A DNA stretch of 64,000 bases from an uncultured Pirellulales bacterium (GTDB lineage: Bacteria > Planctomycetota > Phycisphaerae > Sedimentisphaerales > CAYZTY01): contig CAYUIE010000003.1 in the NCBI GenBank assembly GCA_964444665.1, positions 110,280 through 174,279 of the forward strand, read 5' to 3'. The translations under genes and the position numbers were made by a program. Numbering within the stretch: the first letter of the stretch is position 1; every line of letters starts with the position of its first letter. The notes beneath the pieces were generated by a model. It was given only the letters and a program-made list of their open reading frames with translations, made no database searches and had not been told where the DNA came from. Positions 36,138 to 60,097 of the stretch are shown here, piece after piece.

Positions 36138-36827
36138 TTAGTTTTTAACTGATATTACATCTTCCAAACTTAGAGCACGACTTACGACCAAATAATTCTG
36201 TCCATCTTTTTCGTAAATATTCTCAATTTCTCCACCCCGAGTCTCTATAACACCGGTTTCTGTATTTTCCACAAGGAATGAAACATTTTTACCTACTAAT
36301 GAGTCGGCGACGTCCTTAAAATTAACTTGGTGACCGTCCACTATCAAAAAGCTATCTCCATTAGCATCTTCATAAACCTGATTAATTATACCTGTTGTAA
36401 TTTCCGTTGTGCCGCTTTGTGTTTCCCTGAGATATGTAACTTCCTGCCCTATCAACGAATCAGCCACATCCGCCCAATTAAAAGTACGCTTACCTACTAT
36501 CAAAAAGTATTCCCCCTCAATGTTATAAATTTCATTAACCGTTTCGCTCAACTTCCTGAAGCTGCCCATCCCTGTTCCTTCTAAGAATGAAACATCCTTA
36601 CCTAACAGTGAATTAGCATAACCTAACTCAGCAGCTGAAAGAAACTTTCCAAAGTTTGAATTAATTGACTCAAGCTGCTCCAGTTCTGAGAATTGCGCCA
36701 ACTGTGAGGCCATCTCATTGTTATCCATTGGTTCAAGTGGATTCTGGTATTGCAGCTGAGCTATCAGAAGTCTCATGTAGTCCATTCGTATGTCAGTCGC
36801 TGCTGTTGTTGCTGTTATTGAGCTCAT
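36138..36827 (-). CDS. flgD: Hook capping / assembly protein FlgD
   Basis: DYMRLLIAQLQYQNPLEPMDNNEMASQLAQFSELEQL is the FlgD signature. It lies directly upstream of flgE. Confidence 0.88.
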   Translation of the reverse strand: MSSITATTAATDIRMDYMRLLIAQLQYQNPLEPMDNNEMASQLAQFSELEQLESINSNFGKFLSAAELGYANSLLGKDVSFLEGTGMGSFRKLSETVNEIYNIEGEYFLIVGKRTFNWADVADSLIGQEVTYLRETQSGTTEITTGIINQVYEDANGDSFLIVDGHQVNFKDVADSLVGKNVSFLVENTETGVIETRGGEIENIYEKDGQNYLVVSRALSLEDVISVKN

Positions 36828-36915: not shown

Positions 36916-36931
36916 TGCAATCGGTATGCCA
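36916..36931 (-). promoter_or_regulatory. Sigma-54 promoter for the flgD-led gene run
   Basis: The minus strand reads TGGCAT-ACCGA-TTGCA against the consensus TGGCAC-N5-TTGCW. It lies about 90-105 nt upstream of the flgD ATG. Confidence 0.6.
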
Positions 36932-37024: not shown

Positions 37025-37042
37025 TATGAAAAGCCTTTCATA
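37025..37042. promoter_or_regulatory. Perfect palindrome TATGAAA-AGCC-TTTCATA, a candidate activator (UAS) site
   Basis: 7-bp arms with a 4-bp spacer, read directly. It is centred about 110 bp upstream of the sigma-54 promoter at 36916-36931, the usual distance for enhancer-binding-protein sites. Confidence 0.3.
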
Positions 37043-37148
37043 GGATAAACCTTCCTACACCCCAGAAAATTCTGCCGATTTTGAAAGTTTTTAACTCATA
37101 TGTGTAAAAAGACGCATTTTCATTACTCTACATATTTTTTAAACGATA

Positions 37149-37278
37149 CAAGAAAGTCCTATAAGAAATAGTAGTTTTATCTTTAAAAGAGAAGCTTGTT
37201 TACTTTGTTGCTAACTTACTTATGATAACTGATTGACATATCAACTATAATTTTGCTTATATCAAGAAAGTCCTATAA
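37149..37278. repeat. Pair of identical 16-bp direct repeats CAAGAAAGTCCTATAA (37149-37164 and 37263-37278)
   Basis: Exact 16/16 match, 114 bp apart, in the 680-bp ORF-free divergent region between flgD and the sigma-54 activator gene. Confidence 0.6.
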
Positions 37279-37506
37279 TTAAATTAAAACGTCCGATAAG
37301 GTTATTAATCATTCGATTACTTCTTTTAAGCAAAAAAATTGTAAGATTATTGGCCCGTCCCATAAAAAATTAAAGTAGCTTTCAATAGTCTGTCGATTTA
37401 CTTATCTGTATATTTGCAAATATTTATTTCATTTATCTACGAATTATGATCATCCATATAAATTGAGATAATAAGTGGGGGATAACATTTATGGCTCCAT
37501 AGTAAA

Positions 37507-38943
37507 ATGAATTTACGTATAGTCGTTGCGGTAACTAAGGAAACGCACATCCAGCAGTTAGCCCGACGTATTGGCCAAGACATATTTGTAGCCGATAACA
37601 TAGCTGAAGCTATAGACATTATTCAGACTGTCAGCCCGGATTTAATCCTATTTGATTATCATTTTACTCCAAGACATATCCACGAATTTCTCAATACGAC
37701 CTATAATAATTCGATAAATGTCCCCGTTGTGGTTGTTGGCAGTGATGAAACTAATGCAGGCTTGGTCAACGAATTCAAACAGATGGGTATTATCGACTAT
37801 GTGAACGGGAAACAAGAATACGGCCGACTGGAGCAAATCGCACAACGGATAAAACAACAACGCAAGATTCCCAGCGACAAAAATATCAACGACTTTTTCT
37901 TTGAAGACTTCGCAGCTTCTATTTCTATGGTCGGTAAAAGTTGCGCAATCCAAAATACTTTAAAGATGATTAAACTTGTCGCCGCCAGTAGATGTAACCC
38001 GGTTCTGATAGTTGGTGAAACAGGTACCGGCAAAGAATTAGCTGCTAAGGCGGTACACATTTTAAGGTGCCCAAATGAGCCCTTTGTAGCTGTAAATTGT
38101 GCTGCCCTTACAGCAAATTTGCTTGAAAGTGAACTTTTCGGCCACGTCAAAGGCTCCTTCACCGGTGCTGACCGTGATAAAACAGGTCTTCTTGAACTGG
38201 CTGGTAAAGGTACCCTCCTGCTTGATGAAATCTCTGAAATGCCAATGGAACTACAGGCAAAGCTGTTACGGATTATTCAAGAAAAAAACTTTCGAAAAGT
38301 AGGAGGTACTAAAACTATCACCTGTGACGCTACAATAATAGTCACCAGCAACCGTGATTTACACAAGGAAATCCAAAATAATCACTTTCGCCGTGACCTA
38401 TACCATCGCCTAAATATCAGCCCCATAGCTATCGCTCCTCTCAAAGTACTCCAGAGAAAAGAGGATATCCCCCTTCTGGCTGAGTATTTTCTGAGGACAT
38501 CGACAATTTGTCCTGAAAAACAGAATAAAATAAAATCATTAACCAAGATGGCTATGGAAGCTTTGGAAAAATACGACTGGCCTGGCAATGTCCGAGAACT
38601 TCATAATGTTATTGAAAGAGCGATACTGATAGAAACAACAGACAAAATCGGTCTTAGAAGTATTGTAATTAATCCTATGGAATACGCACTTAACACTAAT
38701 AAACCGACAAGAAGCTACATAAATAATTTTTCATTGGCAAAGGCTGAACGAGAGTTAATTTGCCGGGCTTTGCGAGAAACCAGCTGGCAAAAAACAAAAG
38801 CAGCCGCCCTTCTCGGAATAACCAGAGCGACCCTATACGCAAAGGTCAAGCAATACAACATTAAAAAGGGCATATTTGTCGAAAAAGAGCCGCAATATGA
38901 GGAACCAGCCTCCCTGCTGTCTGAGCCAATATCTGCTGCATAG
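37507..38943 (+). CDS. Sigma-54-dependent transcriptional activator (FleQ/FlrA-like: atypical receiver + AAA+ + Fis-type HTH)
   Basis: Walker A GETGTGKELAAKAVH, GAFTGA-type loop KGSFTGAD, Walker B LLLDEI, and C-terminal HTH AAALLGITRATLYAKVKQY. The N-terminal receiver-like domain lacks the acidic pair after beta-1 (VVAVTKE). Confidence 0.85.
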   Translation: MNLRIVVAVTKETHIQQLARRIGQDIFVADNIAEAIDIIQTVSPDLILFDYHFTPRHIHEFLNTTYNNSINVPVVVVGSDETNAGLVNEFKQMGIIDYVNGKQEYGRLEQIAQRIKQQRKIPSDKNINDFFFEDFAASISMVGKSCAIQNTLKMIKLVAASRCNPVLIVGETGTGKELAAKAVHILRCPNEPFVAVNCAALTANLLESELFGHVKGSFTGADRDKTGLLELAGKGTLLLDEISEMPMELQAKLLRIIQEKNFRKVGGTKTITCDATIIVTSNRDLHKEIQNNHFRRDLYHRLNISPIAIAPLKVLQRKEDIPLLAEYFLRTSTICPEKQNKIKSLTKMAMEALEKYDWPGNVRELHNVIERAILIETTDKIGLRSIVINPMEYALNTNKPTRSYINNFSLAKAERELICRALRETSWQKTKAAALLGITRATLYAKVKQYNIKKGIFVEKEPQYEEPASLLSEPISAA

Positions 38944-38967
38944 TTTCACGTCCTTAATTAAAAGCCA

Positions 38968-39006
38968 ATGTCAGAAAATCTATCGGCTCGTATAGAATCC
39001 TGACAT
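38968..39006. promoter_or_regulatory. Imperfect inverted repeat ATGTCAG-N25-CTGACAT with inner CTAT/ATAG pairing
   Basis: Read directly. It lies 25 nt after the activator stop codon and about 100-135 bp upstream of the sigma-54 promoter at 39103. No U-tract follows, so it could be either a UAS or a weak terminator. Confidence 0.25.
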
Positions 39007-39102
39007 ACCTGCGAAATACAACTTGTCTAATATAAAACGACTAAGCGATTTTCCTGTTAAAAGCCCAGTAATTACACCAACAACAACGCCTTCACCCAAG
39101 TT

Positions 39103-39118
39103 TGGCACATTTATTGCT
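39103..39118 (+). promoter_or_regulatory. Sigma-54 promoter for the + strand regulatory/flagellar gene run
   Basis: TGGCAC-ATTTA-TTGCT is a full match to TGGCAC-N5-TTGCW. It lies about 92-107 nt upstream of the ATG at 39210. Confidence 0.7.
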
Positions 39119-39209
39119 CAAATACACAAACAGGTAGTGAAATATGCTCTAATTTTAGGTTAATCTGTCCCGATTTATCGAAACTAAGCCGAGAGCAGAA
39201 TAAAAACTT

Positions 39210-42140
39210 ATGGCTAAGAAAAAGCCAAAAAAAATTCCCGAAAAAGGTCCTTTAAAGAAGCCACCAAAACAGGAACCTTCAGTCGAACCTCAGGATAAGC
39301 CATCGAAACAGGAACCTTCAGTCGAAGCTCATGAGAAGCCACCAAAACAGGAACCTTTAGTCGAAACTAATGAGAAGCCATCAAAACAGGAAACTTCAGT
39401 CGAAACTCATGAGAAGCCACCCAAACAGGGAGCTTCGGTCGAAGCTCAGGATAAGCCATCGAAACAGGAACCTTCAGACAAAGCTCATGAGAGGCCACCC
39501 AAACAGGAACCTTCAGACAAAGCTCATGGGAAGCCATCAAAACAGGAACCTTCAGTCAAAGCTCATGAGAGGCCACCCAAACAGGAACCTTCAGACAAAG
39601 CTCATGGGAAGCCATCAAAACAGGAACCTTCAGACAAAGCTCATGAGAAGCCGAAAAAACGCAATATATCCACAAAAATATCCACAAATGATAAAAAGGT
39701 TGTCGAGTCTACAGCCCAAAAGAAGCGAGCCCAGGTCACCCAGGAACATCCTTCCAAGATAAGAAACCTATTACGGTTATGGGCTGTGCTTAAGCATCTT
39801 TCGATCCTTCAGAAAGTCCTTGCTTTTAGTATTATCATTATTACAGCAATGCTCCTGTATGCTCTACTGAAACCACCAAAGAGAATTGCATCTCATACCG
39901 GCACAAGGCTTATTACCCCACAAAGAACTTCGCCGAAAGCTTTAACTACGCATGATTTGACAAAAATTCTGCCTACGCAAGTACAAAAACAACAACTTAA
40001 AAATACTCCGGTACAACCATTATCTATAAAAGTAGCTCAAGATTTCTATCTCCAAAAAAATTACAGCATGGCCTACGATATATACAACCAACTCGAGCAG
40101 GATCTTGTGGCAGGCAATGAAGCGGATCTGCTAAGAGATTTTCTTCAGTTTAAAATGGCCTTGTGCATAAAGAAAATAGGAGATGATAAACAGGCAAATC
40201 GTTTACTCAAGTTAATTTCAGAAAGCAATTCACCTATTTTAAGAATATTAGCCAATTATCATATAAGTCTTATCGAGATTCAAAATGAGCAATACTTAAA
40301 AGCAAGAACAAGAGCTTATAAGACACTTGCTCTGATAGGTGCGGTGGATTTGGGCCCAAACATGGCTTTATTACTGCAGCGTAATTGTCACTTTACGATT
40401 GCTGAATCCGTTACCAGATATGTTCTTTCATTATGCGATATTGATAAAGAAATTCCCGACCAAATGTGGAGCCAGCCGGAAGATATCGATCCTTTCTATA
40501 GCATCTACGATACCTATGTTTTAAATGAGCTTTTGAATTCCGGCTCAGAGCAATTAAGCAAAGGATTGCTTTCTCCACAAATTCAAAAAATCGAGCATCC
40601 GGATGCTCCAATACGCTGGTCTCTCACTTGTCACTGGACATCAATTGAAGAGGTCTTGGCCAGATTTGCCGCAAATGCAGAACTTGAAATTATCTGGACT
40701 TCCAGTAAGGATGTGATTGATAAAGTAATTAAAGACGCTATTCGCAACCGAGCGTTAAGTCTATATCTGCCGGCAGCAACAACGCGGCAAACTGTTACTA
40801 CAGCAGCCGGTTGTGTCGGTTTGTTGGCCCAATTAGATGAACAGGGACGAGTAAATATCCATAATCCGGACGAATATAGCTCGTTAACGGAATTCACATC
40901 CTTACTTTCCCGGGAGGCCATATCACTGTGGCAGAGATTTTTACTTTCCTTTTACGATGACCGGTGTGTTCCCAACGCTCATTTTGCCCTGGGACTTCTA
41001 AAAGCAAAGAGAGGTCAATTTATCGAATCAATCGCGGAATATAAACTAGTAGCAAATCGCTATTCACAAACACATTTAGCACCGTTTGCCCTTTTACAAT
41101 CCAGCAAGATAAAATCTAATCTTCGCGACTACCTTGGTGCAGGGCAGGACTTAAAACATCTTATTGAACAATATCCTGATAGTGAGCTTTCCGGCCAAGC
41201 CTGTTTATATCTTGCCGAGACTTCTATGAAGGGCGGACTTTTATATGAGGCCGCACGGCTTTACCGTAAAGTATATAACCTCGGATTATCACGACAATCA
41301 CAGACTGTTTCCGCCTTTGGAGCAGCTAAATGCTTCTACGAAATAGAAGATTATGAAGCCGCAGCCAAATGGTTAAACCGATACATCAACCTTTCCAAAT
41401 ACCAAACAAACAGAGAGCGATATTTGATTTATCTCCTTCTCGGTAAAACAAATTTAAATTTAGAAAATTTGCAGCAAGCCTGCAATGCTTTCCAATATGC
41501 ACTGACAGGCGAACTCTCTAAAGAAGAGTATATAGAAACTGTCTCTGCATTGATAGAAGCACAAATAAAACAGGAACATTTCATCGAGGCCCTTACGCTG
41601 ATAGACAGCGTACATCCCTGGCAATTCTCACAGAAAGAATCTATAGAGATACTGCTGATAAAAAGTAAAATCCTTCGAACTATGGGGCTGGTTAACAAAG
41701 CTGTCTATGTACTTGGCGAAAGAGTTGAATATATCCAGGACACACAATTAAAGACAAAACTCTATTTCGAATTATCTAAATGTTATATTGCACAAGACAA
41801 TCTTGAGCTTGCTCTTAGAGCCCTGTCGGAAACCCTCATCTTCGTAGAACCGGGACCTCTATCGCACGAAATTGCACTTGAGTTGGCCGATGTTTGCTTA
41901 AAACTCGGCGAACACTCGCAAACCATCACCTTATGCCTGCAGCTTTTAGATTCAAACCCCTCATCACAAATAAAACAAAAGGCTTTAAGCACTCTTGCAG
42001 CGGCCTATTACCAGCAAAAAAAATATGATAAGGCAACTCTTGCCTTCTTAGGCAGGTACAATGAACTTGAACCCGAAAATGAAAAAGGAATCTTTGTTAG
42101 TCCGGATGCCCCCAGCCAATTACTAAACATAGTTCAATAA
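39210..42140 (+). CDS. Large single-pass membrane protein: Lys/Pro/Glu tandem-repeat N-terminus, TM helix, ~750-aa TPR-rich domain
   Basis: Ten 13-aa repeats KP(P/S)KQEPSVEAHE, a TM segment VLAFSIIIITAMLLYALL, then many TPR-like pairs (YSMAYDIYNQL.., ESIAEYKLVANRYSQ.., YEAARLYRKVYNL.., YEAAAKWLNRYI.., YDKATLAFLGRY..). Confidence 0.7.
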   Translation: MAKKKPKKIPEKGPLKKPPKQEPSVEPQDKPSKQEPSVEAHEKPPKQEPLVETNEKPSKQETSVETHEKPPKQGASVEAQDKPSKQEPSDKAHERPPKQEPSDKAHGKPSKQEPSVKAHERPPKQEPSDKAHGKPSKQEPSDKAHEKPKKRNISTKISTNDKKVVESTAQKKRAQVTQEHPSKIRNLLRLWAVLKHLSILQKVLAFSIIIITAMLLYALLKPPKRIASHTGTRLITPQRTSPKALTTHDLTKILPTQVQKQQLKNTPVQPLSIKVAQDFYLQKNYSMAYDIYNQLEQDLVAGNEADLLRDFLQFKMALCIKKIGDDKQANRLLKLISESNSPILRILANYHISLIEIQNEQYLKARTRAYKTLALIGAVDLGPNMALLLQRNCHFTIAESVTRYVLSLCDIDKEIPDQMWSQPEDIDPFYSIYDTYVLNELLNSGSEQLSKGLLSPQIQKIEHPDAPIRWSLTCHWTSIEEVLARFAANAELEIIWTSSKDVIDKVIKDAIRNRALSLYLPAATTRQTVTTAAGCVGLLAQLDEQGRVNIHNPDEYSSLTEFTSLLSREAISLWQRFLLSFYDDRCVPNAHFALGLLKAKRGQFIESIAEYKLVANRYSQTHLAPFALLQSSKIKSNLRDYLGAGQDLKHLIEQYPDSELSGQACLYLAETSMKGGLLYEAARLYRKVYNLGLSRQSQTVSAFGAAKCFYEIEDYEAAAKWLNRYINLSKYQTNRERYLIYLLLGKTNLNLENLQQACNAFQYALTGELSKEEYIETVSALIEAQIKQEHFIEALTLIDSVHPWQFSQKESIEILLIKSKILRTMGLVNKAVYVLGERVEYIQDTQLKTKLYFELSKCYIAQDNLELALRALSETLIFVEPGPLSHEIALELADVCLKLGEHSQTITLCLQLLDSNPSSQIKQKALSTLAAAYYQQKKYDKATLAFLGRYNELEPENEKGIFVSPDAPSQLLNIVQ
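39258..39647 (+). repeat. In-frame tandem repeat, 10 x 39 bp (alternating into a 78-bp super-unit)
   Basis: Read directly: AAGCCA(CCA/TCR)AAACAGGAACCTTCAGTCGAAGCTCATGAG and variants. The last four units are nearly identical pairwise. Confidence 0.95.
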
Positions 42141-42141
42141 A

Positions 42142-43083
42142 ATGAAGAGTAAAAATTTACAGCCAACTATGATTGCAGATATTCAATTCAAGACGACTGG
42201 TAAGTGGGATTTAGAACATAAACATAAAGCATCAATCACCGAACACCGAGTCTCAGGCTTTTGGGCTTACTTGTGCTACTCAGCATTGCTAATCATCTGC
42301 TTGTTGTTAAATCCTGTAATCGCTAAACAACAATTGTCCAAAAGCTCAGAAAAACCAAATGAAAAACTACAAGAAGAAAACCTAACAAATCTTACAGGTT
42401 TAGAGGCGAAAGTAACCAGTGGATTACTAAGACATCAACTACAGCAGTCCAGAATTAGTATTTATCAAGTCGAGAAAGATAGCAAAAACAAAAAAGAACT
42501 TAAGCAAAGGATTGAGCAAATTCGCTCTGTTGTATTTAAGTCACAAAATCAGCCCCCCAAATCTAAACCTGTTACCGAGTTAATACCAGCAGTTGAGCCG
42601 AACAAAGTCGATACAACAATGCCTGAAAAATCCAAGAAAACAACATCGCCACCAAAATCTCAAGAACCGGTTAAATCCGGGTATCAATATGAGCCGGTAA
42701 GTGAGCATACTCTACAAATACTCGAAAAGATAATGCAAAATCCCAACGAGCTTAAAAACCCCTTCGAGTTGGCAGAAGTTTTATTCCTTAATGGTCATAC
42801 AAAAAAAGCAACAATTCTTTATCAGGAAGCTCTTAATCGCAAAGACCCGAATGATCTCAACTCAGTTCAGGAAAAAGCCTGGATATTATTTCAAATGGGC
42901 AACTGCCTACGAAGTTATGACCTTCAAGCGGCAAGAAAAACTTACAGACAGCTTATTGCAGAATATGCCGACTATCCCTGGATCGACATTGCCAAAGTTC
43001 AGGAAAAGATGATCCACTGGTATATAGAAGAAAAGCCGTATACGTTAATTAAAGAGTGTAAAGAATTAGTGGAAGGAATATAA
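42142..43083 (+). CDS. Membrane-anchored protein with C-terminal TPR-like module
   Basis: Starts 1 nt after the previous stop codon. It has a TM segment FWAYLCYSALLIICLLLNPVIA and a C-terminal helical repeat (KKATILYQEALNRKDPND..AWILFQMGNCLRSYDLQAARKTYRQLIAEY). Confidence 0.5.
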   Translation: MKSKNLQPTMIADIQFKTTGKWDLEHKHKASITEHRVSGFWAYLCYSALLIICLLLNPVIAKQQLSKSSEKPNEKLQEENLTNLTGLEAKVTSGLLRHQLQQSRISIYQVEKDSKNKKELKQRIEQIRSVVFKSQNQPPKSKPVTELIPAVEPNKVDTTMPEKSKKTTSPPKSQEPVKSGYQYEPVSEHTLQILEKIMQNPNELKNPFELAEVLFLNGHTKKATILYQEALNRKDPNDLNSVQEKAWILFQMGNCLRSYDLQAARKTYRQLIAEYADYPWIDIAKVQEKMIHWYIEEKPYTLIKECKELVEGI

Positions 43084-43120
43084 AAATTACAACAAAAAGA
43101 ATTAATGGAGCATCTCTAAC

Positions 43121-44626
43121 GTGAACAGCATTGAAACAAAAAACTTAGGCACAGACCTGTCAAAAGAAAATATTTTGAATATAATGATAGTCGGCAGCGA
43201 CCCTAATATGTCTCGATTTTTACTTGAGATTTTTGCCCACAAAGGGATTCGTGGTCATCTTGCCAATGATAGAAAAAGTGCGCTTAAATTCCTCGAGAAA
43301 AACAGCTGCGATCTCATATTTACCACCGACAAATTCAGCCAAAGTGCCGGCCATTCTTCTCAATCACATGATGGTTTCGAACTGCTTGCCGGAATTAATG
43401 CAAATTCACCGGAGCTTCCGGTGGTTATGATAACAAAGGCCCAAAACGGACAAACACAACAACAAAAAACAGTTGAAACAGCCGTTAGCGCAATTAAGCA
43501 AGGCTGTTGTGATTTTCTCATCGAGCCGCTCGACCGCAGGAAAATAGAAAATATTCTGGACAGCCTCTTGCCTAATCATAATGTTTCAACGATAGCCTTT
43601 GCCTACGAAGGTCCAAACTGCCTATACAGAATCGTAGGCAGAAGCTCAAAACTAATTCAAACTGTAGAATTGGCCAAAAGAATAGCACCAACCTCAGCAC
43701 CGGTTCTGGTAAGCGGTGAAAGTGGAACAGGCAAAGAGTTAATCTCTTTTCTTACCCATCACAAAAGTAAAAGAGCCCAGGGACCATACATTAAAGTTAA
43801 CTGCGCAGCATTAAGTGATTCCCTTCTTGAAAGCGAGCTGTTTGGGCACGAGAAAGGAGCCTTTACTGGTGCCTATTTTCAGCGTAAGGGCCGGTTTGAG
43901 ATGGCACATGGTGGAACTCTGCTGCTGGACGAAATTACCGAAACACCCCTCAAATTTCAGGCCAAACTTTTACGAGTACTTGAACAGCAGGATTTCGAGC
44001 GTGTCGGCGGCACCGAAAATGTTAAAGTCGACGTCAGAGTAATAAGCACAACCAATAAAGACTTGTTAGATGAAGTTCAAAAAGGCAGATTCCGCAAAGA
44101 CCTCTACTATCGGCTAAGCGGAATAAGATTGGTCATACCCCCTTTAAGAAAACGAAATGAAGATTTATATGACCTGGTTTGGTATTTCGTCAACATTTAT
44201 GCTCGTGAGTCTAATCGCCATATCGCTAAATTAGACTCTGCAATGATGGATATATTCGATAAGTATGACTGGCCCGGCAATGTTCGCCAATTACGAAATG
44301 TTGTACGAACATCATTGATTTTGGGAACAGACCATACTCTCTCACTGGCTGATGTCTCATGGCTTTTTGATGAATTACAACCGCTGCCGCAGGAAAAAGT
44401 AAGTGTATCCGAAGAAGTATACCAAAGCGGACAACCAAATAATCTTCAAAAGACGGGAATAGGGGGAATGCCTCTTAAGCAAGTAGAGCGAAGGGCAATT
44501 TTAGAGACATTACGTCAAACAGCAGGGAATCAAATCAAAGCTGCAAAGGTATTAGGCATTAGTGACAGGACTTTACGAGAAAAGATACATCGATATCGGC
44601 GCGAAGGTTGCTTACAGTTAACCTGA
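43121..44626 (+). CDS. Second sigma-54-dependent transcriptional activator (FlrC/FleR-like position, atypical receiver)
   Basis: Walker A GESGTGKELISFLTH, intact GAFTGA (EKGAFTGAY), LLLDEI, and C-terminal HTH AAKVLGISDRTLREKIHRY. The receiver-like N-terminus has an ambiguous phospho-acceptor context (CDLIFTTDKF). GTG start. Confidence 0.85.
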   Translation: MNSIETKNLGTDLSKENILNIMIVGSDPNMSRFLLEIFAHKGIRGHLANDRKSALKFLEKNSCDLIFTTDKFSQSAGHSSQSHDGFELLAGINANSPELPVVMITKAQNGQTQQQKTVETAVSAIKQGCCDFLIEPLDRRKIENILDSLLPNHNVSTIAFAYEGPNCLYRIVGRSSKLIQTVELAKRIAPTSAPVLVSGESGTGKELISFLTHHKSKRAQGPYIKVNCAALSDSLLESELFGHEKGAFTGAYFQRKGRFEMAHGGTLLLDEITETPLKFQAKLLRVLEQQDFERVGGTENVKVDVRVISTTNKDLLDEVQKGRFRKDLYYRLSGIRLVIPPLRKRNEDLYDLVWYFVNIYARESNRHIAKLDSAMMDIFDKYDWPGNVRQLRNVVRTSLILGTDHTLSLADVSWLFDELQPLPQEKVSVSEEVYQSGQPNNLQKTGIGGMPLKQVERRAILETLRQTAGNQIKAAKVLGISDRTLREKIHRYRREGCLQLT

Positions 44627-44663: not shown

Positions 44664-45296
44664 ATGGCAGATACGGACGAGGAAAAAGAGCAAAAGGACG
44701 ACGTAAAAAAACAAGAAGAGCCCAAAGAAAAGTCTGAGGCTCCAAAGGAAAATCAGGATGATAAAAAGGCAGCCAAAAGTGGCTCCTTACAGTGGATAAT
44801 ATTGGCTGCCGTGGTTGCTTTCTGCGCTGGTTCAGGCTTCGGACTTGGCAGATTACTTGCTGGTTCCGTTAAAAACGAACCAGCCCAAGCTCCTCAAACC
44901 ACTACGGAAGAACTCAATCAGGCAAAAGATATAAAATCGGATGCACCTGATTTAAGCGGAGGAGAATCTCAAAAAACCTGGTATTATGATTTAGAACCGG
45001 TTGTCGCAAATCTCGATGAACCCGGTGTAACAAGATACATCAGGGCCGCCTTAACACTTCAAATCAACTCCGAGGTAGATCAAAAGAAAGGTGTCGCCTT
45101 TTTTGAAGAGAAAATGCCGCTCTTAACAGACTGGCTTACCATCTATTTTGCAGGTCTAAGCATAGAAGATATCAGAGGTGACAAAAATCTCAAGCGTATT
45201 AAGTCGCAAATACTCGACATTTTTAACGAAAAGCTTTTTCCTGACGTTAAACCTCAAATAAAAAACATCCTTTTTAAGGAATTAGCTATACAATGA
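44664..45296 (+). CDS. fliL: Flagellar basal-body-associated protein FliL
   Basis: Charged N-terminus, one TM segment, then YYDLEPVVANLDEPGVTRYIRAALTLQI...LKRIKSQILDIFNEKLF. It lies directly upstream of fliM. Confidence 0.8.
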   Translation: MADTDEEKEQKDDVKKQEEPKEKSEAPKENQDDKKAAKSGSLQWIILAAVVAFCAGSGFGLGRLLAGSVKNEPAQAPQTTTEELNQAKDIKSDAPDLSGGESQKTWYYDLEPVVANLDEPGVTRYIRAALTLQINSEVDQKKGVAFFEEKMPLLTDWLTIYFAGLSIEDIRGDKNLKRIKSQILDIFNEKLFPDVKPQIKNILFKELAIQ

Positions 45297-46243
45297 ATAA
45301 TGCAGACGCTAATAACTTAAGCAGACAGAAGATTCAACAACTCCTCGCCGCCGTCGGAACCGGTTCTGCAGAATATAATACACAGATACAAGCCACCGAG
45401 TATAATTGGCATCAACCTCATTACTTCGGTACTCAGCAGCTTAAAAAAATTGATGAAGTAGTCAAAAAATTTGCAACAGCTACAGCTGATAAATTCACTT
45501 CTCTTTGCCAAAAAGAATTTAATGCTACAATCGCCTCCGTTACACAGCATTATGCTTCGGAATTTTATGAACAACAGTCAGATAATCAGCTCGAACTTTT
45601 TCAGCCATTTGGCACCAACACAACTAACATATGTGGATTGGTCGCTGTACCCCACCCAACAGCAATTGCCTGGACAAGGCTTTTACTCGGCGACTCCGAA
45701 ACCGAAGACGATTCAGGCAAAGATTTATCGCAACTGGAAGTGTCACTTTTATCAGATATTTGTTCGAGCATCATTGATGCTTTCTCCAGCTCTTATGAAT
45801 CTTTCGATTTTCATCCGGTACAAGGTTTTATTAAAGGACAATTTCCCTTAAAATTGAAAAGCTCGGAGGAACTTTTTAAAATCACATTTAATGTAAACTT
45901 AGCTGATTCAGAAAAAGCATCTGATGCTTACCTTTTAATATTATGCAGCAAATTAGCACCTGTGGCAGAAAAAACGGCACCGATTGGTGAAAATAAAGAA
46001 CTTTCAAAACAAGAAACTTCAAAAGCTATTGTACGGTACATAGAGCAAATATACGTCTATGTTAAAGCCCAACTTTCTTCAACTTCACTTACTCTTGACC
46101 AGATATTAAATCTCCAGGTCGACGACATATTAGTTCTTGATAAAAGAGTTGATGAGCCAATCGAATTGATAGTTAACGGCCAAAGAATTTGTCGCGGCTG
46201 GCCTGCGAAATCAGCCGGCCAGTATGCCGTAGTAATCAAATAG
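45293..46243 (+). CDS. fliM: Flagellar motor switch protein FliM
   Basis: N-terminal LSRQKIQQLL (resembling the LSQxEIDxLL CheY-P-binding motif) and a C-terminal SpoA-type domain (LNLQVDDILVLDKRVDEPIELIVNGQRICRG). It overlaps fliL by 4 nt. Confidence 0.85.
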   Translation: MNNADANNLSRQKIQQLLAAVGTGSAEYNTQIQATEYNWHQPHYFGTQQLKKIDEVVKKFATATADKFTSLCQKEFNATIASVTQHYASEFYEQQSDNQLELFQPFGTNTTNICGLVAVPHPTAIAWTRLLLGDSETEDDSGKDLSQLEVSLLSDICSSIIDAFSSSYESFDFHPVQGFIKGQFPLKLKSSEELFKITFNVNLADSEKASDAYLLILCSKLAPVAEKTAPIGENKELSKQETSKAIVRYIEQIYVYVKAQLSSTSLTLDQILNLQVDDILVLDKRVDEPIELIVNGQRICRGWPAKSAGQYAVVIK

Positions 46244-46292
46244 AATCCATAAATGAATTAACCATCTTTAGAAAGAAATACAGGAGTATCTT

Positions 46293-46670
46293 ATGGCAAA
46301 AACAGATACAGCAGTTAAAGAAAAAGAGGGCGAGGCCGCTGATGATTCAAAAAAACAGGCGCAATCTGTTGAACTCACCGAGGCTACCGAAGGTCAAGCT
46401 ACTGGTCCCGGTGGTAGCATAGATATCCTACTTGATATGAACATACCGGTCACTGTTTCTATTGGCCAAACAGAAATTTCGGTAAAACGACTCCTGCAAC
46501 TTGGTTCCGGCTCAGTCTTGAAGCTTGATAAACCTATTGATGAGCCGGTAGACCTCTACCTAAAGGACACAAAGTTCGCCACTGGAAGTGTAGTGGTAGT
46601 GGACGGTTGGTTCGCCGTAAAGATAAACCAGATTTTGGGTACCGGGCCGCAAAAAGCAGATGTGACATAA
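46293..46670 (+). CDS. fliN: Flagellar motor switch protein FliN
   Basis: SpoA domain IDILLDMNIPVTVSIGQTEISVKRLLQLGSGSVLKLDKPIDEPVDLYL. Confidence 0.9.
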   Translation: MAKTDTAVKEKEGEAADDSKKQAQSVELTEATEGQATGPGGSIDILLDMNIPVTVSIGQTEISVKRLLQLGSGSVLKLDKPIDEPVDLYLKDTKFATGSVVVVDGWFAVKINQILGTGPQKADVT

Positions 46671-46709
46671 GTTAAATTCTCAGAATACTTTGTTCTAAAA
46701 GAAACTATT

Positions 46710-48875: not shown

Positions 48876-48913
48876 GATTCAAAATTTGATAACTGAAAAT
48901 TCGGAAACTTACT

Positions 48914-49159
48914 ATGCCATTCAATGTCCGGTCAATCGCGGTAGGTATTGCAGTAATATGCTTTTTCAGCCTGAGTTTTATCGGCTGGATTAGCGGCCTA
49001 TCTCCATTCATTTGCTGCAAAAGAGCATTGGCAGGTACAGTACTTGCCTATATAGCAGGTAACTGGGCGGTCAAAGCCATTAATGCTATCTTGATTAACG
49101 CGATTATTACTAACCATATAAGTAAACAAAAGGAACAAGGAATTGGCGGTAAAGACTAA
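48914..49159 (+). CDS. Hypothetical small two-TM membrane protein
   Basis: 81-aa ORF with two hydrophobic segments and no obvious Shine-Dalgarno sequence. It sits where flhF/flhG are found in many sigma-54-tiered systems. Confidence 0.35.
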   Translation: MPFNVRSIAVGIAVICFFSLSFIGWISGLSPFICCKRALAGTVLAYIAGNWAVKAINAILINAIITNHISKQKEQGIGGKD

Positions 49160-49952
49160 GGAAAATCCTGAGAAGCAGACAGTTGAAGACCCTAAAAAGC
49201 ACCTAAATTCCGCTGCTATGCGCGCTTATTCCGGACAAAAGAAATCCACACAATTCATCGAAGATGAGCAGATAGTACAATTTCTCCCTATGGTTCATAA
49301 AATAGCCCGAAAGGTAATAAAATATCTGAAGCCACCATTAGTATTTGAAGATTTGGTTTCAGCTGGAACTGTTGGGCTGGTAAAAGCGGCTCGTGATTTC
49401 GACCCCTCTCATCACGCTGAATTCAAAACCTACGCCTACATCAGGATAAAAGGAGCCATTCTTGATGAACTAAGAGGTTGGTCTTTTATACCTGCGAATC
49501 TAAAAAAACAGGTTCGCAAGGCCATGCAACTCAGCCAGAAAATCACTGAGGAAACCGGTTCTGTCCCCAGTGATGCTGAATTAGCTGAAAAGCTTGGAAT
49601 AACTGTCGACGAGCTCTACAAGATGCTTGAAAATGCTCGTGCCCAGCATTTTATCTCTATAGATGACTCTACAGAAAACTCCCCTGCATTGGGAAATTTT
49701 TTGTCAGCAAGAAACACAACTACTCCTGCCCAGCAAATTGAAAAAGCTGAGCTTATAGATAAGTTAGCCAAGGCGATTCAAACATTGCCTAAAAAACAAC
49801 AGCAAATTATTGTGCTTTATTACCAGCAACATCTAACGATGAAACAAATTGCTGAAATTCTCGAAATAACCGAGTCATGTATCAGCCAACTGCACGCAAG
49901 TGCAATATTTAATTTGTCCGTAAAATTAAGGCAGTGGAAAGATGGTAGATAA
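49143..49952 (+). CDS. fliA: Flagellar sigma factor FliA (sigma-28)
   Basis: Region 2 DLVSAGTVGLVKAARDFDPSHHAEFKTYAYIRIKGAILDELR and region 4 LTMKQIAEILEITESCISQLHASAI. The ORF-track start is TTG at 49143; an ATG at 49218 is an alternative start. Confidence 0.88.
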   Translation: MAVKTKENPEKQTVEDPKKHLNSAAMRAYSGQKKSTQFIEDEQIVQFLPMVHKIARKVIKYLKPPLVFEDLVSAGTVGLVKAARDFDPSHHAEFKTYAYIRIKGAILDELRGWSFIPANLKKQVRKAMQLSQKITEETGSVPSDAELAEKLGITVDELYKMLENARAQHFISIDDSTENSPALGNFLSARNTTTPAQQIEKAELIDKLAKAIQTLPKKQQQIIVLYYQQHLTMKQIAEILEITESCISQLHASAIFNLSVKLRQWKDGR

Positions 49953-55949: not shown

Positions 55950-56237
55950 GGAATTATTTACAGAAATTAATGACAGAATTGATAGACCTGTAATATTGAT
56001 GTTATATATACTGATAAGAGCTTCGCGTGTTTGGTTATTCTTGCAATGTAGATGCGGCCACTCTGTTTTATATGACTTAAGTTAAGTTGAAAAACTGAAT
56101 TACGGTTATTTCAGCTTTCATGAATTTCTTTTCCTACGCAGAAAATCCACGTTCTCAGACAAGAGAACTCAAAATTAAGACACTAAACCAGATTATAGTG
56201 ACACATAGGATAACGCCAAACCGGCTAACATCTTCGT

Positions 56238-56542
56238 TTAAAAAGGAGAAACGTCAATATAATCTTTCTCTGATTTATCGGCAATAAACTCCGGATTATC
56301 GTCACTGCGAATAAACTTCGGTATCCCGCGAACTATAAACAGATACTCCAAAACTGCGATCACGGCTCTGGCTTTTATCGAACGGTCCACCTCAATCACC
56401 AGTGATTCACGTGTGTATTCATCAAGCACCGTCAGCAACTTTAGCTTTCTGTCGTCTTCGGCCCTGTCATCATACATCCAGACGTGATTGATGAACTTAA
56501 CTTCTTAACGATTTGTTCTGGGGTGTAGTTTGGAGTATTCAT
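56238..56542 (-). pseudogene. Degraded IS3-type transposase remnant (OrfA N-terminus fused out of frame to an internal integrase-core fragment)
   Basis: MNTPNYTPEQIVKKL resembles the HTH OrfA start. In another frame, NHVWMYDDRAEDDRKLKLLTVLDEYTRESLVIEV...RGIPKFIRSDDNPEFIA matches the rve-core pattern (..VW..D......G.KL.LL.V.DE.TRE.L...V......RG.P..IRSDNGPEF). It is truncated at both ends and I found no terminal repeats. Confidence 0.6.
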
Positions 56543-56641
56543 TTCAATAAAAAAACCACCACTGTACCTGTGGCATAAATTATCAGATGCCTTCTAATCT
56601 GCAATGGTACACACTCTTAGGGGGGCACTTCACAGTTTCAA

Positions 56642-58324: not shown

Positions 58325-58339
58325 AAAGCCTTTCTCTTT

Positions 58340-60083: not shown

Positions 60084-60097
60084 ACTTACTATCTTTT

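What the first reader, a model, noticed from the sequence alone, without database searches (positions are those of the whole stretch)
37507..44626. Two sigma-54 activators with atypical receivers, no histidine kinase, sandwiching two membrane TPR proteins
In the well-studied Vibrio and Pseudomonas hierarchies, the master activator FlrA/FleQ is followed by a two-component pair (FlrBC/FleSR). Here two AAA+/Fis-HTH activators are present, but no kinase gene lies in the window. Receiver 1 lacks the acidic pair after beta-1. Receiver 2 has a shifted acceptor context (DLIFTTD). The genes between them encode a 976-aa and a 313-aa single-pass membrane protein with TPR domains, and the whole block is preceded by a consensus sigma-54 promoter (39103-39118). 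I infer that the TPR membrane proteins may replace the kinase as the checkpoint input to the second activator. That would be an undescribed regulatory arrangement.
Basis: partly seen in the sequence, partly recalled or inferred. Interest (0 to 1): 0.6.

Follow-up and report, generated by a model that had tools for sequence, protein, structure and literature searches.

The report
Kinase-less two-activator flagellar switch module
A flagellar gene cluster of an uncultured planctomycete (Sedimentisphaerales) carries two sigma-54 activators whose receiver domains can no longer be phosphorylated in the usual way. The two TPR proteins between them face the periplasm and look like flagellum-specific envelope parts, not stand-ins for a kinase, so this is a conserved variant of known kinase-free flagellar cascades.

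Summary
Two NtrC-type sigma-54 activators (ACT1 37507-38943, ACT2 43121-44626) flank a 976-aa and a 313-aa TPR protein. A perfect -24/-12 promoter lies at 39103-39118. No histidine kinase is encoded in the window or in 10 kb on either side.

The order ACT1 > TPR1-TPR2-ACT2-fliLMN-flhA-fliA, divergent from flgD-flgE, is kept in about 57 species-level Phycisphaerae genomes. Both sigma-54 promoters and two different upstream enhancer-like elements are conserved with it.

ACT1's receiver lacks the acidic pair, T87 and K109 in every ortholog. The window's ACT2 lacks D12, D13 and K109, and its Asp is shifted by one residue.

The family is not uniformly dead. Most ACT2 orthologs keep D12, the shifted Asp and K109. 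One distant relative (L081) is essentially canonical and still has TPR1-TPR2 upstream. So the TPR genes predate the loss of phospho-chemistry and did not arise as a kinase replacement.

Both TPR proteins are predicted to be periplasmic. TPR1 has an N-in anchor and YbgF-like repeats; TPR2 has a signal peptide. They resemble the motor scaffolds PflA/PflB.

Kinase-free precedents exist (FleQ/FleT, FlbD/FliX). The verdict is a new variant of a known kind, of moderate interest. The TPR1-TPR2-activator triad never breaks up, and many TPR1 proteins carry a conserved cytoplasmic motif. This leaves a small chance of real coupling.

The parts
36138..36827 (-). flgD, the first gene of the divergent rod/hook/ring operon (flgD, flgE, unknown, flgF, flgG, flgA, flgH, flgI)
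   Evidence: ORF list. Pfam families of the neighbouring genes. Synteny holds in about 55 loci.
36916..36931 (-). Sigma-54 promoter (TGGCATACCGATTGCA) 89 bp upstream of flgD
   Evidence: A -24/-12 element is present at this place in 53 of 53 related loci.
37042..37076 (.). Conserved enhancer-like element of the flgD promoter. It consists of two AT-centred palindromes, CCAGAAAATTCTGCC and AGGATAAACCTTCCT, as read on the + strand.
   Evidence: Anchored comparison of 54 loci. The core GGCAGAATTTTCTGG has a single exact match in the window.
37156..37365 (+). Array of four same-strand GTCC[CTG]ATAA boxes upstream of ACT1, at 37156, 37270, 37291 and 37357. The proximal box lies inside a highly conserved GTGACATTATTGGCCSGTCCCATAAAAAA-type sequence.
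   Evidence: These are the only four matches in the 64 kb. Two to five copies (mostly three or four) sit upstream of ACT1 in nearly all related loci. Their function is unknown; they may be the ACT1 promoter or sites for a regulator.
37507..38943 (+). ACT1: a sigma-54 activator (AAA+ domain with a GSFTGA loop, Fis-type HTH) with a pseudo-receiver. It is the probable top-tier regulator.
   Evidence: Pfam. In 55 orthologs the receiver residues are D12 to S/T/G, D13 to K/R, D57 kept, T87 to G, and K109 to G/S/T. No NCBIfam equivalog cut-off is reached.
38969..39005 (.). 37-bp imperfect palindrome TGTCAGAAAATCTATCGGCTCGTATAGAATCCTGACA, the enhancer-like element of the TPR1 promoter
   Evidence: It is unique in the window. 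It is nearly invariant in 36 of 58 loci, in most of them about 134 bp (133-136) upstream of the -24 element, even though the distance to the ACT1 stop codon varies from 99 to 382 bp.
39103..39118 (+). Consensus sigma-54 promoter (TGGCACATTTATTGCT) 92 bp upstream of TPR1
   Evidence: It is conserved in 57 of 57 close loci and in 4 of 4 distant loci.
39210..42140 (+). TPR1: a disordered cytoplasmic N-terminus (residues 1-198, a K/P/E-rich repeat), one TM helix (199-220), and a periplasmic part with TPR-like helices, a low-confidence insert and a long TPR superhelix
   Evidence: AlphaFold2 model. Hydropathy. YbgF/CpoB-type TPR matches. 710 homologs with E <= 0.001, the 120 listed being 52% identical or more. 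341 clusters at 50% identity with E <= 1e-30.
42142..43083 (+). TPR2: a signal peptide or anchor followed by a periplasmic protein with a conserved C-terminal TPR domain. Its start codon is 1 nt after the TPR1 stop codon.
   Evidence: It directly follows TPR1 in essentially every locus where that side is held.
43121..44626 (+). ACT2: a sigma-54 activator (GAFTGA loop, Fis-type HTH) with a degenerate receiver. It is the probable second-tier regulator.
   Evidence: Pfam. Receiver residues in the window protein are G25, S26, T69, D70, T105 and E135. HMMER alignments to NtrX and NtrC1. The AlphaFold2 model gives a receiver fold over residues 20-150 with beta3 at 65-69.
44664..49952 (+). The rest of the operon: fliL, fliM, fliN, flhA, an 81-aa FlgV-like protein with two TM helices, and fliA (sigma-28)
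   Evidence: Pfam. The genes are tightly spaced or overlapping. The same order is kept in related loci.

Best explanation
This is the regulatory core of the flagellar regulon of Sedimentisphaerales and related Phycisphaerae. It is a two-tier sigma-54 cascade that, in this genome, runs without receiver phosphorylation.

**Tier 1.** ACT1 is an enhancer-binding protein whose N-terminal domain is a pseudo-receiver in every lineage examined. I infer that it binds the 37-bp palindrome at 38969-39005 and opens the sigma-54 promoter at 39103.

**Tier 2.** That promoter drives one operon: TPR1, TPR2, ACT2, fliL, fliM, fliN, flhA, a flgV-like gene and fliA. I infer that ACT2, made from this operon, then acts on the different enhancer-like element at 37042-37076. 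This would open the divergent sigma-54 promoter at 36916-36931 for the rod/hook/ring operon (flgD through flgI). FliA would take over for the late genes.

**The TPR proteins.** TPR1 and TPR2 are early-class, flagellum-specific envelope proteins whose TPR domains lie in the periplasm. Most likely they form a membrane-anchored scaffold or assembly factor around the basal body, near FliL and the stators. That would be functionally like PflA/PflB or the spirochaete collar protein. They are not kinase surrogates.

**What is shown.** Gene content, domains, the conserved promoters and upstream elements, the receiver residue states, and the conserved synteny.

**What is inferred.** Which activator binds which element, the periplasmic topology, and the scaffold role.
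For: **Activators and promoters**
- Both activators have intact AAA+ domains, GAFTGA-type loops and Fis HTH domains.
- Only two strong intergenic sigma-54 sites exist in the window. Each is about 90 bp from a flagellar operon start. They are conserved in 57/57 and 53/53 loci.
- Each promoter has its own conserved upstream element at enhancer distance, and the two elements differ.
- ACT2 lies inside the sigma-54-driven operon with small gaps and no intergenic terminator.

**Receivers**
- ACT1 lacks D12, D13, T87 and K109 in 55 orthologs and in two distant relatives.
- The window's ACT2 lacks D12, D13 and K109, and its Asp is shifted by one residue.

**No kinase nearby**
- None in about 84 kb of the source contig, or within 10 kb of TPR1 in 74 related loci.

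**TPR proteins**
- TPR1 has a long, signal-less, disordered N-terminus, then one TM helix, then TPR repeats. Basic residues cluster on the N-side of the helix in orthologs.
- It matches YbgF/CpoB-type repeats.
- TPR2 orthologs begin with signal-peptide-like sequences.
- Every TPR1 homolog whose surroundings could be read sits among flagellar genes.

**Precedents**
- The FleQ to fleT-fliEFGHIJ cascade runs without a kinase (PMC7277832).
- FlbD has a divergent receiver and no kinase (PMC3096577).
- PflA/PflB are periplasmic TPR scaffolds that work with FliL and MotB (PMC12222027).
Against: - No experiment or expression data exist for this lineage.
- The assignment of each activator to an enhancer element is a guess. 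The two could act together, as FleQ and FleT do.
- TPR1 shows no detectable sequence or specific fold relationship to PflA, PflB or any other known motor protein. Foldseek returns only generic TPR superhelices.
- The topology is predicted, not measured.
- The TPR1-TPR2-activator triad stays together even where the downstream structural genes differ: fliLMN-flhA in some lineages, flgBC-fliEFG in others.
- Many TPR1 proteins carry a conserved cytoplasmic motif. Its loss tends to coincide with decay of the ACT2 receiver. Together with the triad, this hints at a closer functional tie than co-expression.
- Most ACT2 orthologs keep D12, the shifted Asp and K109. Phosphorylation cannot be excluded for the family as a whole.
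Confidence: 0.5

Rival explanations
1. TPR1, with TPR2, is a trans-envelope checkpoint sensor. Its periplasmic TPR part would report the state of basal-body or envelope assembly. Its cytoplasmic tail would bind or sequester the receiver-like domain of ACT2, so setting ACT2 activity without a kinase.
For: - TPR1-TPR2-activator is an invariant triad across deep divergence, even though the genes downstream of it differ.
- Many TPR1 family members carry a conserved acidic/aromatic motif, core [DE][VIL]F[AVS]GD..FY, in an otherwise variable cytoplasmic tail.
- 12 of 14 loci that lack the motif also have a disrupted D12 / shifted-Asp / K109 triad in ACT2. Among loci that keep the motif the figure is 11 of 42.
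- FlbD/FliX shows that a flagellar sigma-54 activator can be controlled by a protein partner instead of a kinase (PMC3096577).
Against: - The TPR domains themselves are predicted to be periplasmic and cannot touch ACT2.
- The window's own TPR1 lacks the motif. A 39-bp tandem repeat array encodes its tail instead.
- The motif/receiver correlation is confounded by phylogeny. Most motif-less loci belong to two or three divergent clades.
- The sisters of the window lineage keep the motif but already have the degenerate receiver.
- TPR1-TPR2 co-occur with an essentially canonical ACT2 receiver in L081, so they did not evolve as a kinase substitute.
- Conserved gene order in flagellar operons often reflects co-expression only.
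Confidence: 0.13
2. ACT2 is still a phosphorylated response regulator. The Asp one residue after the usual position (D70 in the window protein) would be the acceptor. An orphan histidine kinase encoded elsewhere, or acetyl phosphate, would serve it. The apparent absence of a kinase would then be only a matter of gene location.
For: - HMMER aligns D70 with the acceptor Asp of NtrX and NtrC1 by opening a one-residue gap.
- In the AlphaFold2 model D70 is the first residue after beta3, where an acceptor Asp would sit.
- Among 120 close orthologs, 104 keep D12, 95 keep the shifted Asp and 99 keep K109.
- A subset (L024, L026-L029, L035) has the full set D12, D13, shifted Asp, T87 and K109.
- The distant L081 is essentially canonical.
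Against: - In the window protein and its subclade (L003, L004, L005, L066) the Mg-binding pair D12/D13 is G-S/A/G and K109 is E. That is hard to reconcile with phosphotransfer.
- The shifted Asp is replaced by E, N or S in 25 of 120 close orthologs. In the 56 genome-derived orthologs it is N, E, A, V or I in 14. Such variation is unusual for a true acceptor.
- No kinase is linked to the locus in any of 74 genomes.
Confidence: 0.12
3. ACT1 and ACT2 do not form a linear cascade. They would act as a hetero-oligomer, like FleQ/FleT of Rhodobacter sphaeroides. ACT1 alone would drive the TPR1 operon, and the ACT1/ACT2 complex would drive the flgD operon and later operons.
For: - The R. sphaeroides precedent has the same logic. 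The master activator drives an operon that holds the second activator plus early structural genes, and the two then activate the next class together (PMC7277832).
- Both proteins here are complete AAA+ activators, and neither appears to depend on a kinase.
Against: - FleT lacks a DNA-binding domain (my own recollection of the primary literature; not stated in the review read). Here both activators keep a Fis-type HTH.
- The two promoters have clearly different conserved upstream elements. That fits two separate DNA-binding specificities better.
- In several relatives (L052, L060, L068, L077, L079) no ACT1 gene lies next to the module.
Confidence: 0.15

Closest known systems
FleQ / FleT cascade of the Fla1 flagellum of Rhodobacter (Cereibacter) sphaeroides
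   Same: - Two sigma-54 enhancer-binding proteins are involved and no histidine kinase.
- The master activator drives a sigma-54 operon that encodes the second activator together with early flagellar structural genes.
- The next class then follows, including fliA (PMC7277832).
   Different: - FleT has no DNA-binding domain and works only as a hetero-oligomer with FleQ (my own recollection, not checked here). Here both activators carry a Fis HTH and a receiver-like N-terminal domain.
- The two promoters here have different upstream elements.
- No TPR genes are described in the Rhodobacter operon.
- The lineage is a different phylum.
FlbD / FliX of Caulobacter crescentus
   Same: - A flagellar sigma-54 activator whose receiver diverges from the norm and lacks key phosphorylation residues.
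- No cognate kinase is known.
- Its activity is tied to assembly through a protein partner (PMC3096577).
   Different: - No FliX-like family was found among the unassigned conserved ORFs of the cluster.
- The NCBIfam FlbD model scores 282 and 338 bits against a cut-off of 750.
- The top regulator in Caulobacter is CtrA, not a second enhancer-binding protein.
FlrA-FlrBC (Vibrio) and FleQ-FleSR (Pseudomonas) hierarchies
   Same: - A two-tier sigma-54 cascade.
- The second-tier activator gene sits behind a sigma-54 promoter.
- FliA controls the late genes.
- From my own knowledge, not confirmed by the papers read here: the master activator's receiver domain cannot be phosphorylated.
   Different: - There is no FlrB/FleS kinase gene next to the second activator or anywhere in about 84 kb.
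- The second-tier receiver lacks D12, D13 and K109.
- No FleQ-type N-terminal domain is detected in ACT1.
- There is no flhF/flhG between flhA and fliA.
- By eye, the FleQ c-di-GMP-binding residues are not kept in ACT1. No alignment was run, so this is inference.
PflA / PflB of Campylobacter and Helicobacter (and, from my own knowledge, the TPR collar protein FlcA of Borrelia)
   Same: - Large, flagellum-specific proteins built of long TPR superhelices that act in the periplasm.
- PflA and PflB work with FliL and MotB.
- The PflB model is almost all alpha-helical with two short strands, as is the TPR1 model.
- A YbgF/Tol-Pal origin has been proposed for them, and TPR1's best specific matches are YbgF/CpoB (PMC12222027).
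   Different: - There is no detectable sequence homology and no specific fold match.
- No imaging or genetic evidence exists for the planctomycete proteins.
- TPR1-TPR2 are always encoded directly upstream of a sigma-54 activator, which is not described for pflA/pflB.

Membership tests
NtrC-type bacterial enhancer-binding protein (sigma-54 activator) | AAA+ sigma-54 interaction domain with Walker A/B motifs and a GAFTGA loop | tested here: met
   PF00158 scores 1.5e-60 for ACT1 and 1.3e-67 for ACT2. The sequences show GETGTGKE with GSFTGA in ACT1, and GESGTGKE with GAFTGA in ACT2.
NtrC-type bacterial enhancer-binding protein (sigma-54 activator) | C-terminal Fis-type HTH, and sigma-54 promoters with upstream enhancer sites in the regulon | tested here: met
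   HTH_8 scores 7.7e-12 and 1.2e-12. -24/-12 promoters lie at 39103 and 36931 and are conserved in 57/57 and 53/53 loci. Conserved palindromic elements lie at enhancer distance.
Phosphorylatable two-component receiver (CheY-like REC): ACT1 | The catalytic quintet D12, D13, D57, T/S87 and K109 | tested here: not met
   The window ACT1 has T, K, D, G and G at these positions. In 55 orthologs D12 is S/T/G, D13 is K/R, T87 is G in 50, and K109 is K in only 2. Only D57 is kept. Pfam Response_reg scores 22.6 bits, below the 30.2 cut-off.
Phosphorylatable two-component receiver (CheY-like REC): ACT2 of this window | The catalytic quintet D12, D13, D57, T/S87 and K109 | tested here: not met
   The window ACT2 has G25, S26, T69 (with Asp at +1, D70), T105 and E135. 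The receiver fold itself is predicted with pLDDT 75-86.
Phosphorylatable two-component receiver (CheY-like REC): the ACT2 family as a whole | The catalytic quintet conserved across orthologs | tested here: inconclusive
   In 120 orthologs D12 is kept in 104, D13 in 25, the canonical position 57 in none, Asp at +1 in 95, T87 in 54 and K109 in 99. HMMER places the +1 Asp on the acceptor by opening a gap. The distant L081 is essentially canonical; L077 and L079 are degenerate.
Two-component system (kinase plus regulator pair) | A cognate histidine kinase, usually adjacent | tested here: not met
   No HisKA or HATPase is found in the window ORFs that were scanned, in 10 kb beyond each end, or by motif scan. 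None is found within 10 kb of TPR1 in 70 plus 4 related loci. A kinase elsewhere in the genome could not be tested with these tools.
FleQ / FlrA master regulators | FleQ-type N-terminal domain (Pfam PF06490), and a FleN/FlhG partner encoded in the cluster | tested here: not met
   ACT1 gives no FleQ-domain hit at E <= 0.01. No flhF or flhG gene lies between flhA and fliA or elsewhere in the cluster.
FlbD / FliX system | FlbD equivalog score, and a FliX partner gene | tested here: not met
   NF050807 scores 281.6 bits for ACT1 and 338.2 bits for ACT2, against a cut-off of 750. None of the conserved unassigned ORFs matches a FliX family, even at E <= 1.
PflA / PflB-type periplasmic TPR motor scaffold | Homology to PflA or PflB | tested here: not met
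   The TPR1 profile searched against all PDB sequences at E <= 1 returns CpoB, designed TPR proteins and MamA, but no flagellar protein. I did not confirm that PflA/PflB chains are in that PDB copy. Foldseek returns only generic TPR superhelices.
PflA / PflB-type periplasmic TPR motor scaffold | Periplasmic TPR superhelix, membrane or signal anchoring, flagellum-specific gene context | tested here: met
   The AlphaFold2 model and hydropathy. Signal-peptide-like N-termini in TPR2. Flagellar context in all readable loci. Topology rests on prediction only.
PflA / PflB-type periplasmic TPR motor scaffold | Physical location in the motor, and a requirement for stator occupancy | not testable with these tools
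   This needs cryo-electron tomography and mutants.
YbgF / CpoB (Tol-Pal TPR protein) | Equivalog-level match, and a tol-pal gene context | tested here: not met
   TIGR02795 scores 73.3 bits against a cut-off of 90.1, in three stretches. CpoB in the PDB scores 6.8e-05 over about 100 residues. The gene context is flagellar, not tol-pal.

The most novel reading that the evidence does not exclude
The invariant TPR1-TPR2-activator triad would be a trans-envelope assembly checkpoint of a new kind. A membrane-anchored periplasmic TPR scaffold would report basal-body or envelope assembly through a short conserved cytoplasmic motif ([DE][VIL]F[AVS]GD..FY). That motif would dock onto the receiver-like domain of a sigma-54 activator. 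The link would have worked alongside phosphorylation at first and would have replaced it as the receiver decayed in several lineages.
Probability: 0.12. Interest if true: 0.75.

Novelty: new variant of a known kind. Interest (0 to 1): 0.4.

Why it matters
- **Flagellar regulation.** Flagellar gene control has been worked out almost entirely in Proteobacteria and a few Firmicutes and spirochaetes. This locus gives a clean, deeply conserved regulatory blueprint for a PVC lineage: two sigma-54 activators, two conserved promoters, two distinct enhancer-like elements, and fliA at the end of the operon.
- **Receiver decay.** The ACT2 family forms a natural series, from an essentially canonical receiver to heavily decayed ones, within one orthologous gene. 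That makes it a good system for asking how a response regulator becomes independent of phosphorylation.
- **A candidate motor component.** TPR1 and TPR2 form a large, uncharacterised, flagellum-specific protein pair (341 clusters at 50% identity). They are a good candidate for a new periplasmic motor component, which bears on how motor accessory structures evolved repeatedly from TPR building blocks.
- **Limits.** None of this overturns current concepts, and nothing here has been tested experimentally.

Tried and rejected
1. **Receiver-only homolog search.** Searching with ACT2 residues 1-170 returned a single hit. It was useless. The full-length search was needed.
2. **Fold and sequence searches for TPR1.** Foldseek against the PDB gave only generic TPR proteins such as TTC7B, IFT-A, OGT and APC/C. 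The TPR1 profile against PDB sequences gave no flagellar protein. No specific structural relative can be claimed.
3. **A secretin/TonB-type domain in TPR1.** I suspected an STN-like beta-alpha domain in the middle of TPR1, at residues about 470-550. Support is weak: only a sub-threshold TcpQ hit (E = 0.007), and the model has low confidence there. I dropped it as a claim.
4. **GTCC[CTG]ATAA boxes as sigma-28 promoters.** I rejected this reading. The motif occurs nowhere else in the window, not even upstream of the flagellin gene or other late genes, and no suitably spaced -35 element is present.
5. **Apparent second activator after TPR2.** In L033 and L052 this turned out to be an ACT2 split by a frameshift.
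6. **Motif/receiver correlation.** I examined the link between the TPR1 cytoplasmic motif and the state of the ACT2 receiver on a similarity tree. It is suggestive but confounded by clade structure, so I do not use it as evidence of interaction.
7. **Taxonomy of distant TPR1 relatives.** The cluster-member look-up gave no organism names.
8. **Terminator and sigma-70 scans.** Scans over 36.7-52 kb found no more sites than in shuffled sequence.
9. **Asp position in the ACT2 model.** The AlphaFold2 output gives only secondary structure, so the exact position of D70 in the active-site pocket could not be measured. The AAA+ part of that model has low confidence.

Full report
**1. What is in the window**

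The 64-kb window is one large flagellar gene cluster.
- On the minus strand lie fliD, a 3987-aa multi-glycosyltransferase ORF, sugar-modification genes, flgL, flgK, flgN, flgI, flgH, flgA, flgG, flgF, an unknown membrane protein, flgE and flgD.
- On the plus strand, from 37.5 kb, lie ACT1, TPR1, TPR2, ACT2, fliL, fliM, fliN, flhA, an 81-aa protein with two TM helices, and fliA.

TPR1 homologs are annotated as coming from Sedimentisphaerales, Phycisphaerae or Planctomycetota metagenome-assembled genomes. The window lies on a 335,869-bp JGI metagenome contig.

**2.

- ACT1 (37507-38943, 478 aa) and ACT2 (43121-44626, 501 aa) both have a sigma-54 interaction domain, an AAA lid and a Fis-type HTH. 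Their N-terminal receiver matches are weak: 22.6 bits (below the Pfam cut-off of 30.2) and 34.8 bits.
- TPR1 (976 aa) and TPR2 (313 aa) give TPR matches and have one hydrophobic segment each.
- TGGCACATTTATTGC at 39103-39117 is the only perfect TGGCAC-N5-TTGC in the window. It sits 92 bp upstream of TPR1, after ACT1 rather than before it.
- A second strong site, TGGCATACCGATTGCA at 36916-36931 on the minus strand, sits 89 bp upstream of flgD.
- No kinase domain was found in any ORF of at least 120 aa that was scanned. The giant ORF and a few ORFs nested inside annotated genes were not scanned with Pfam. No kinase motif combination occurs in any open frame of at least 90 aa.
- The 10 kb to the left holds fliE, fliF, fliG, fliH, fliI, fliJ, an unknown gene, motA, two motB-like genes and fliO. 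The 10 kb to the right holds unrelated metabolic genes. Neither holds a kinase.

**3. The arrangement is an old, conserved module**

A profile of TPR1 retrieved 70 loci from one-genome-per-species collections, all from Phycisphaerae-type MAGs.
- In about 57 of them the order matches the window: flgH through flgD on one strand, then ACT1, TPR1, TPR2, ACT2, fliL, fliM, fliN, flhA, the small protein and fliA on the other.
- A -24/-12 element is present upstream of TPR1 in 57 of 57 loci and upstream of flgD in 53 of 53.
- No extra gene recurs in these loci, and none carries kinase motifs.
- In three more divergent genomes (L052, L060, L068) ACT1 is not upstream, but TPR1-TPR2-ACT2 stay together.

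An exhaustive profile search found 341 clusters at 50% identity with E <= 1e-30. I looked at four distant members.
- TPR1 is always followed by a TPR2-sized gene and then a sigma-54 activator.
- What follows the activator differs: fliL-fliM-fliN-flhA in L079, and flgB-flgC-fliE-fliF-fliG through motA in L077, L080 and L081.
- Two of the four also have an ACT1-like activator directly upstream.
- All four have a -24/-12 element 67-104 bp upstream of TPR1.

So the triad behind a sigma-54 promoter is the conserved unit.

**4. Cis elements**

- *Upstream of the TPR1 promoter.* A 37-bp imperfect palindrome, TGTCAGAAAATCTATCGGCTCGTATAGAATCCTGACA (38969-39005), is unique in the window. It is nearly invariant in 36 of 58 loci and, in most of them, lies about 134 bp (133-136) from the -24 element, while the distance to the ACT1 stop codon varies from 99 to 382 bp. 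It therefore belongs to the promoter, as an enhancer would.
- *Upstream of the flgD promoter.* A different conserved element lies at a similar distance (37042-37076). It is made of two AT-centred palindromes.
- *Reading.* Two promoters with two different elements and two activators with DNA-binding domains fit a two-step cascade best. Which protein binds which element is my inference.
- *Upstream of ACT1.* Four same-strand GTCC[CTG]ATAA boxes are the only four matches in the window. They recur upstream of ACT1, mostly in three or four copies, in nearly all related loci. Their role is unknown.

**5. The receivers**

*ACT1.* I aligned it with CheY, NtrC and Spo0F, whose sequences I wrote from memory. 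In the window protein, ACT1 has T-K for the acidic pair, keeps the Asp at position 57, and has G for both T87 and K109. The 55 orthologs show the same pattern, as do two distant ACT1-like proteins. ACT1 is a pseudo-receiver throughout. This recalls FleQ/FlrA-type masters, but it has no FleQ-type domain match.

*ACT2 is more nuanced.*
- The window protein has G25 and S26 for D12 and D13. T69 sits at the canonical acceptor position with an Asp one residue later (D70). T105 stands for T87 and E135 for K109.
- HMMER pairwise alignments to solved NtrX and NtrC1 receivers place D70 on the acceptor Asp by opening a one-residue gap.
- In the AlphaFold2 model the receiver fold is confident (pLDDT 75-86). 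Beta3 is residues 65-69, so D70 is the first residue after the strand.
- Among 120 close orthologs, D12 is kept in 104 and D13 in only 25. The canonical position 57 is never Asp. The +1 Asp is kept in 95, and K109 in 99.
- The window and its nearest relatives (L003, L004, L005, L066) form a subclade that has lost D12, D13 and K109 together.
- At the other extreme, the distant L081 activator has DD, DLVLVD, S and K at these positions, which is essentially a canonical receiver. L080 is intermediate. L077 and L079 are degenerate.

My reading is that ACT2 descends from a phosphorylatable regulator and has lost that chemistry repeatedly, including in the window lineage. For this genome, "no kinase needed" is well supported. 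For the family as a whole it is not.

**6. The TPR proteins**

*TPR1 structure and topology.*
- The AlphaFold2 model has a disordered N-terminus (1-198), a TM helix (199-220), a linker, a TPR-like helical domain (270-450), a low-confidence insert with two short strands, and a long TPR superhelix (559-946).
- A 190-residue charged N-terminus without a signal peptide must stay in the cytoplasm, so the 750-residue TPR part should be periplasmic.
- In orthologs the basic residues cluster on the N-side of the helix.

*Matches.* The only specific matches are to YbgF/CpoB-type repeats of the Tol-Pal system. Fold search gives generic TPR superhelices.

*TPR2.* Orthologs begin with a short basic stretch, a hydrophobic core and Ala-rich cleavage-like sites, which is a signal peptide. 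The conserved part is a C-terminal TPR domain.

*Context and precedent.* Every TPR1 homolog whose neighbours could be read is inside a flagellar cluster. Large periplasmic TPR proteins are known building blocks of flagellar motor scaffolds. PflA and PflB form the spoke-and-rim disk that holds stators together with FliL, and a Tol-Pal/YbgF origin has been proposed for them (PMC12222027). TPR1 and TPR2 fit that functional picture, but no homology to PflA or PflB is detectable.

**7. Can the TPR proteins be the input to ACT2?**

*Against.*
- Their TPR domains are on the wrong side of the membrane.
- They co-exist with a canonical receiver in L081, so they did not arise as a kinase substitute.
- The window's TPR1 lacks the family's only conserved cytoplasmic feature.

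*For.*
- Most orthologs carry that feature: an acidic/aromatic motif, LSEREVFAGDEDFYKLL, with core [DE][VIL]F[AVS]GD..FY. It lies in the cytoplasmic tail and is seen in many diverse family members.
- In the window protein the tail is instead encoded by 10.2 copies of a 39-bp tandem repeat.
- Loci without the motif tend to have a decayed ACT2 receiver: 12 of 14, against 11 of 42 with the motif.
- The motif-less loci fall mostly into a few divergent clades, however. The association may be phylogenetic.
- The invariance of the triad is real but does not prove physical coupling.

I put the checkpoint idea at roughly 0.12-0.13.

**8. Comparison with known systems**

- Kinase-free control of flagellar sigma-54 activators is established. 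In Rhodobacter sphaeroides, FleQ drives an operon that contains the second activator FleT plus fliEFGHIJ, and FleQ/FleT then activate the next class (PMC7277832).
- In Caulobacter, FlbD has a divergent receiver that lacks key residues, has no known kinase, and is controlled by FliX (PMC3096577).
- Sigma-54 promoters in front of motility genes have been predicted for Planctomycetia (PMC12316311).
- The present module combines features of these systems. What is new is the pairing of a universally dead receiver (ACT1) with a variably decaying one (ACT2), and an invariant pair of periplasmic TPR genes at the head of the operon.
- It fails the membership tests for FleQ/FlrA, FlbD/FliX, FlrBC/FleSR and PflA/PflB. 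It is best called a new variant of a known kind.

**9. Verdict**

Kinase independence in this genome is supported. TPR proteins as a kinase replacement are not.
- Interest is moderate (0.4). The locus offers a well-defined regulatory blueprint for an unstudied phylum, a natural series of receiver decay, and a candidate new motor component. All functional statements remain inference from sequence.

Noticed in passing
window 5496-17459 (-): A single 3987-aa ORF lies next to fliD. It carries DUF8361 and many glycosyltransferase domains (GT2, GT4, GT1). It is presumably a giant flagellin or filament glycosylation enzyme. Fragments of a similar protein lie next to fliD in L052.
   Followed up: partly
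window 48914-49159 (+): An 81-aa protein with two TM helices, an Arg at the start of the second helix and a polar tail lies between flhA and fliA. It is conserved in essentially all related loci. It fits the published description of FlgV, which is reported in the PVC clade including Phycisphaerae (PMC11607428). No HMM was available to confirm the assignment.
   Followed up: partly
window 39256-39652 (+), inside TPR1: 10.2 copies of a 39-bp tandem repeat (86% matches) encode a 13-residue K/P/E-rich repeat. This repeat replaces the conserved acidic cytoplasmic motif that most TPR1 orthologs carry. The closest relatives (68% identical) still have the motif.
   Followed up: yes
window 37156-37365 (+): Four GTCC[CTG]ATAA boxes are the only matches in the 64 kb. 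All are on the ACT1 strand upstream of ACT1, and the array is conserved in nearly all related genomes. The proximal box is embedded in a nearly invariant sequence of about 30 bp. This is a candidate control region for the top regulator; the binding factor is unknown.
   Followed up: partly
window 33567-34385 (-): A conserved single-pass membrane protein of unknown family lies between flgE and flgF. It is 272 aa here and 380-460 aa in distant relatives, and is present at that position in almost all loci, including distant ones. It contains an RxxxR stretch (RRFLR) that recalls a PilZ motif, but there is no Pfam support.
   Followed up: partly
L073 5909-8100 (left of the window on the source contig): motA is followed by two MotB-like genes. 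Both have the MotB plug, but only the second has a clear OmpA peptidoglycan-binding domain. The same motA plus MotB-plug pattern appears in the distant loci L080 and L081.
   Followed up: no
window 48875-49143: There is no flhF or flhG between flhA and fliA, nor anywhere in the roughly 84 kb examined, although these genes occupy that place in many polar flagellates. Control of flagellar number and placement must work differently or be encoded elsewhere.
   Followed up: no
window 56000-62000 (-): G+C content drops to about 0.32, against about 0.41 in the rest of the window. The drop covers a block of PMT-type glycosyltransferase, GT2, radical-SAM/SPASM and carbamoyltransferase genes next to the flagellin gene. 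A 79-aa integrase (rve) fragment lies between the block and the flagellin gene (L075 17037-17276). This may be an acquired glycosylation island.
   Followed up: no
L033 6767-8370 and L052 13404-14916: In these two genomes ACT2 is split into two ORFs by a frameshift. This is either an assembly error or a pseudogene.
   Followed up: partly
L081 14006-15439: A distant ortholog of ACT2 has an essentially canonical receiver (DD, DLVLVD, S, K) and is still preceded by TPR1-TPR2. No kinase lies within 10 kb. It is a useful comparator for tracing how the receiver decayed.
   Followed up: partly
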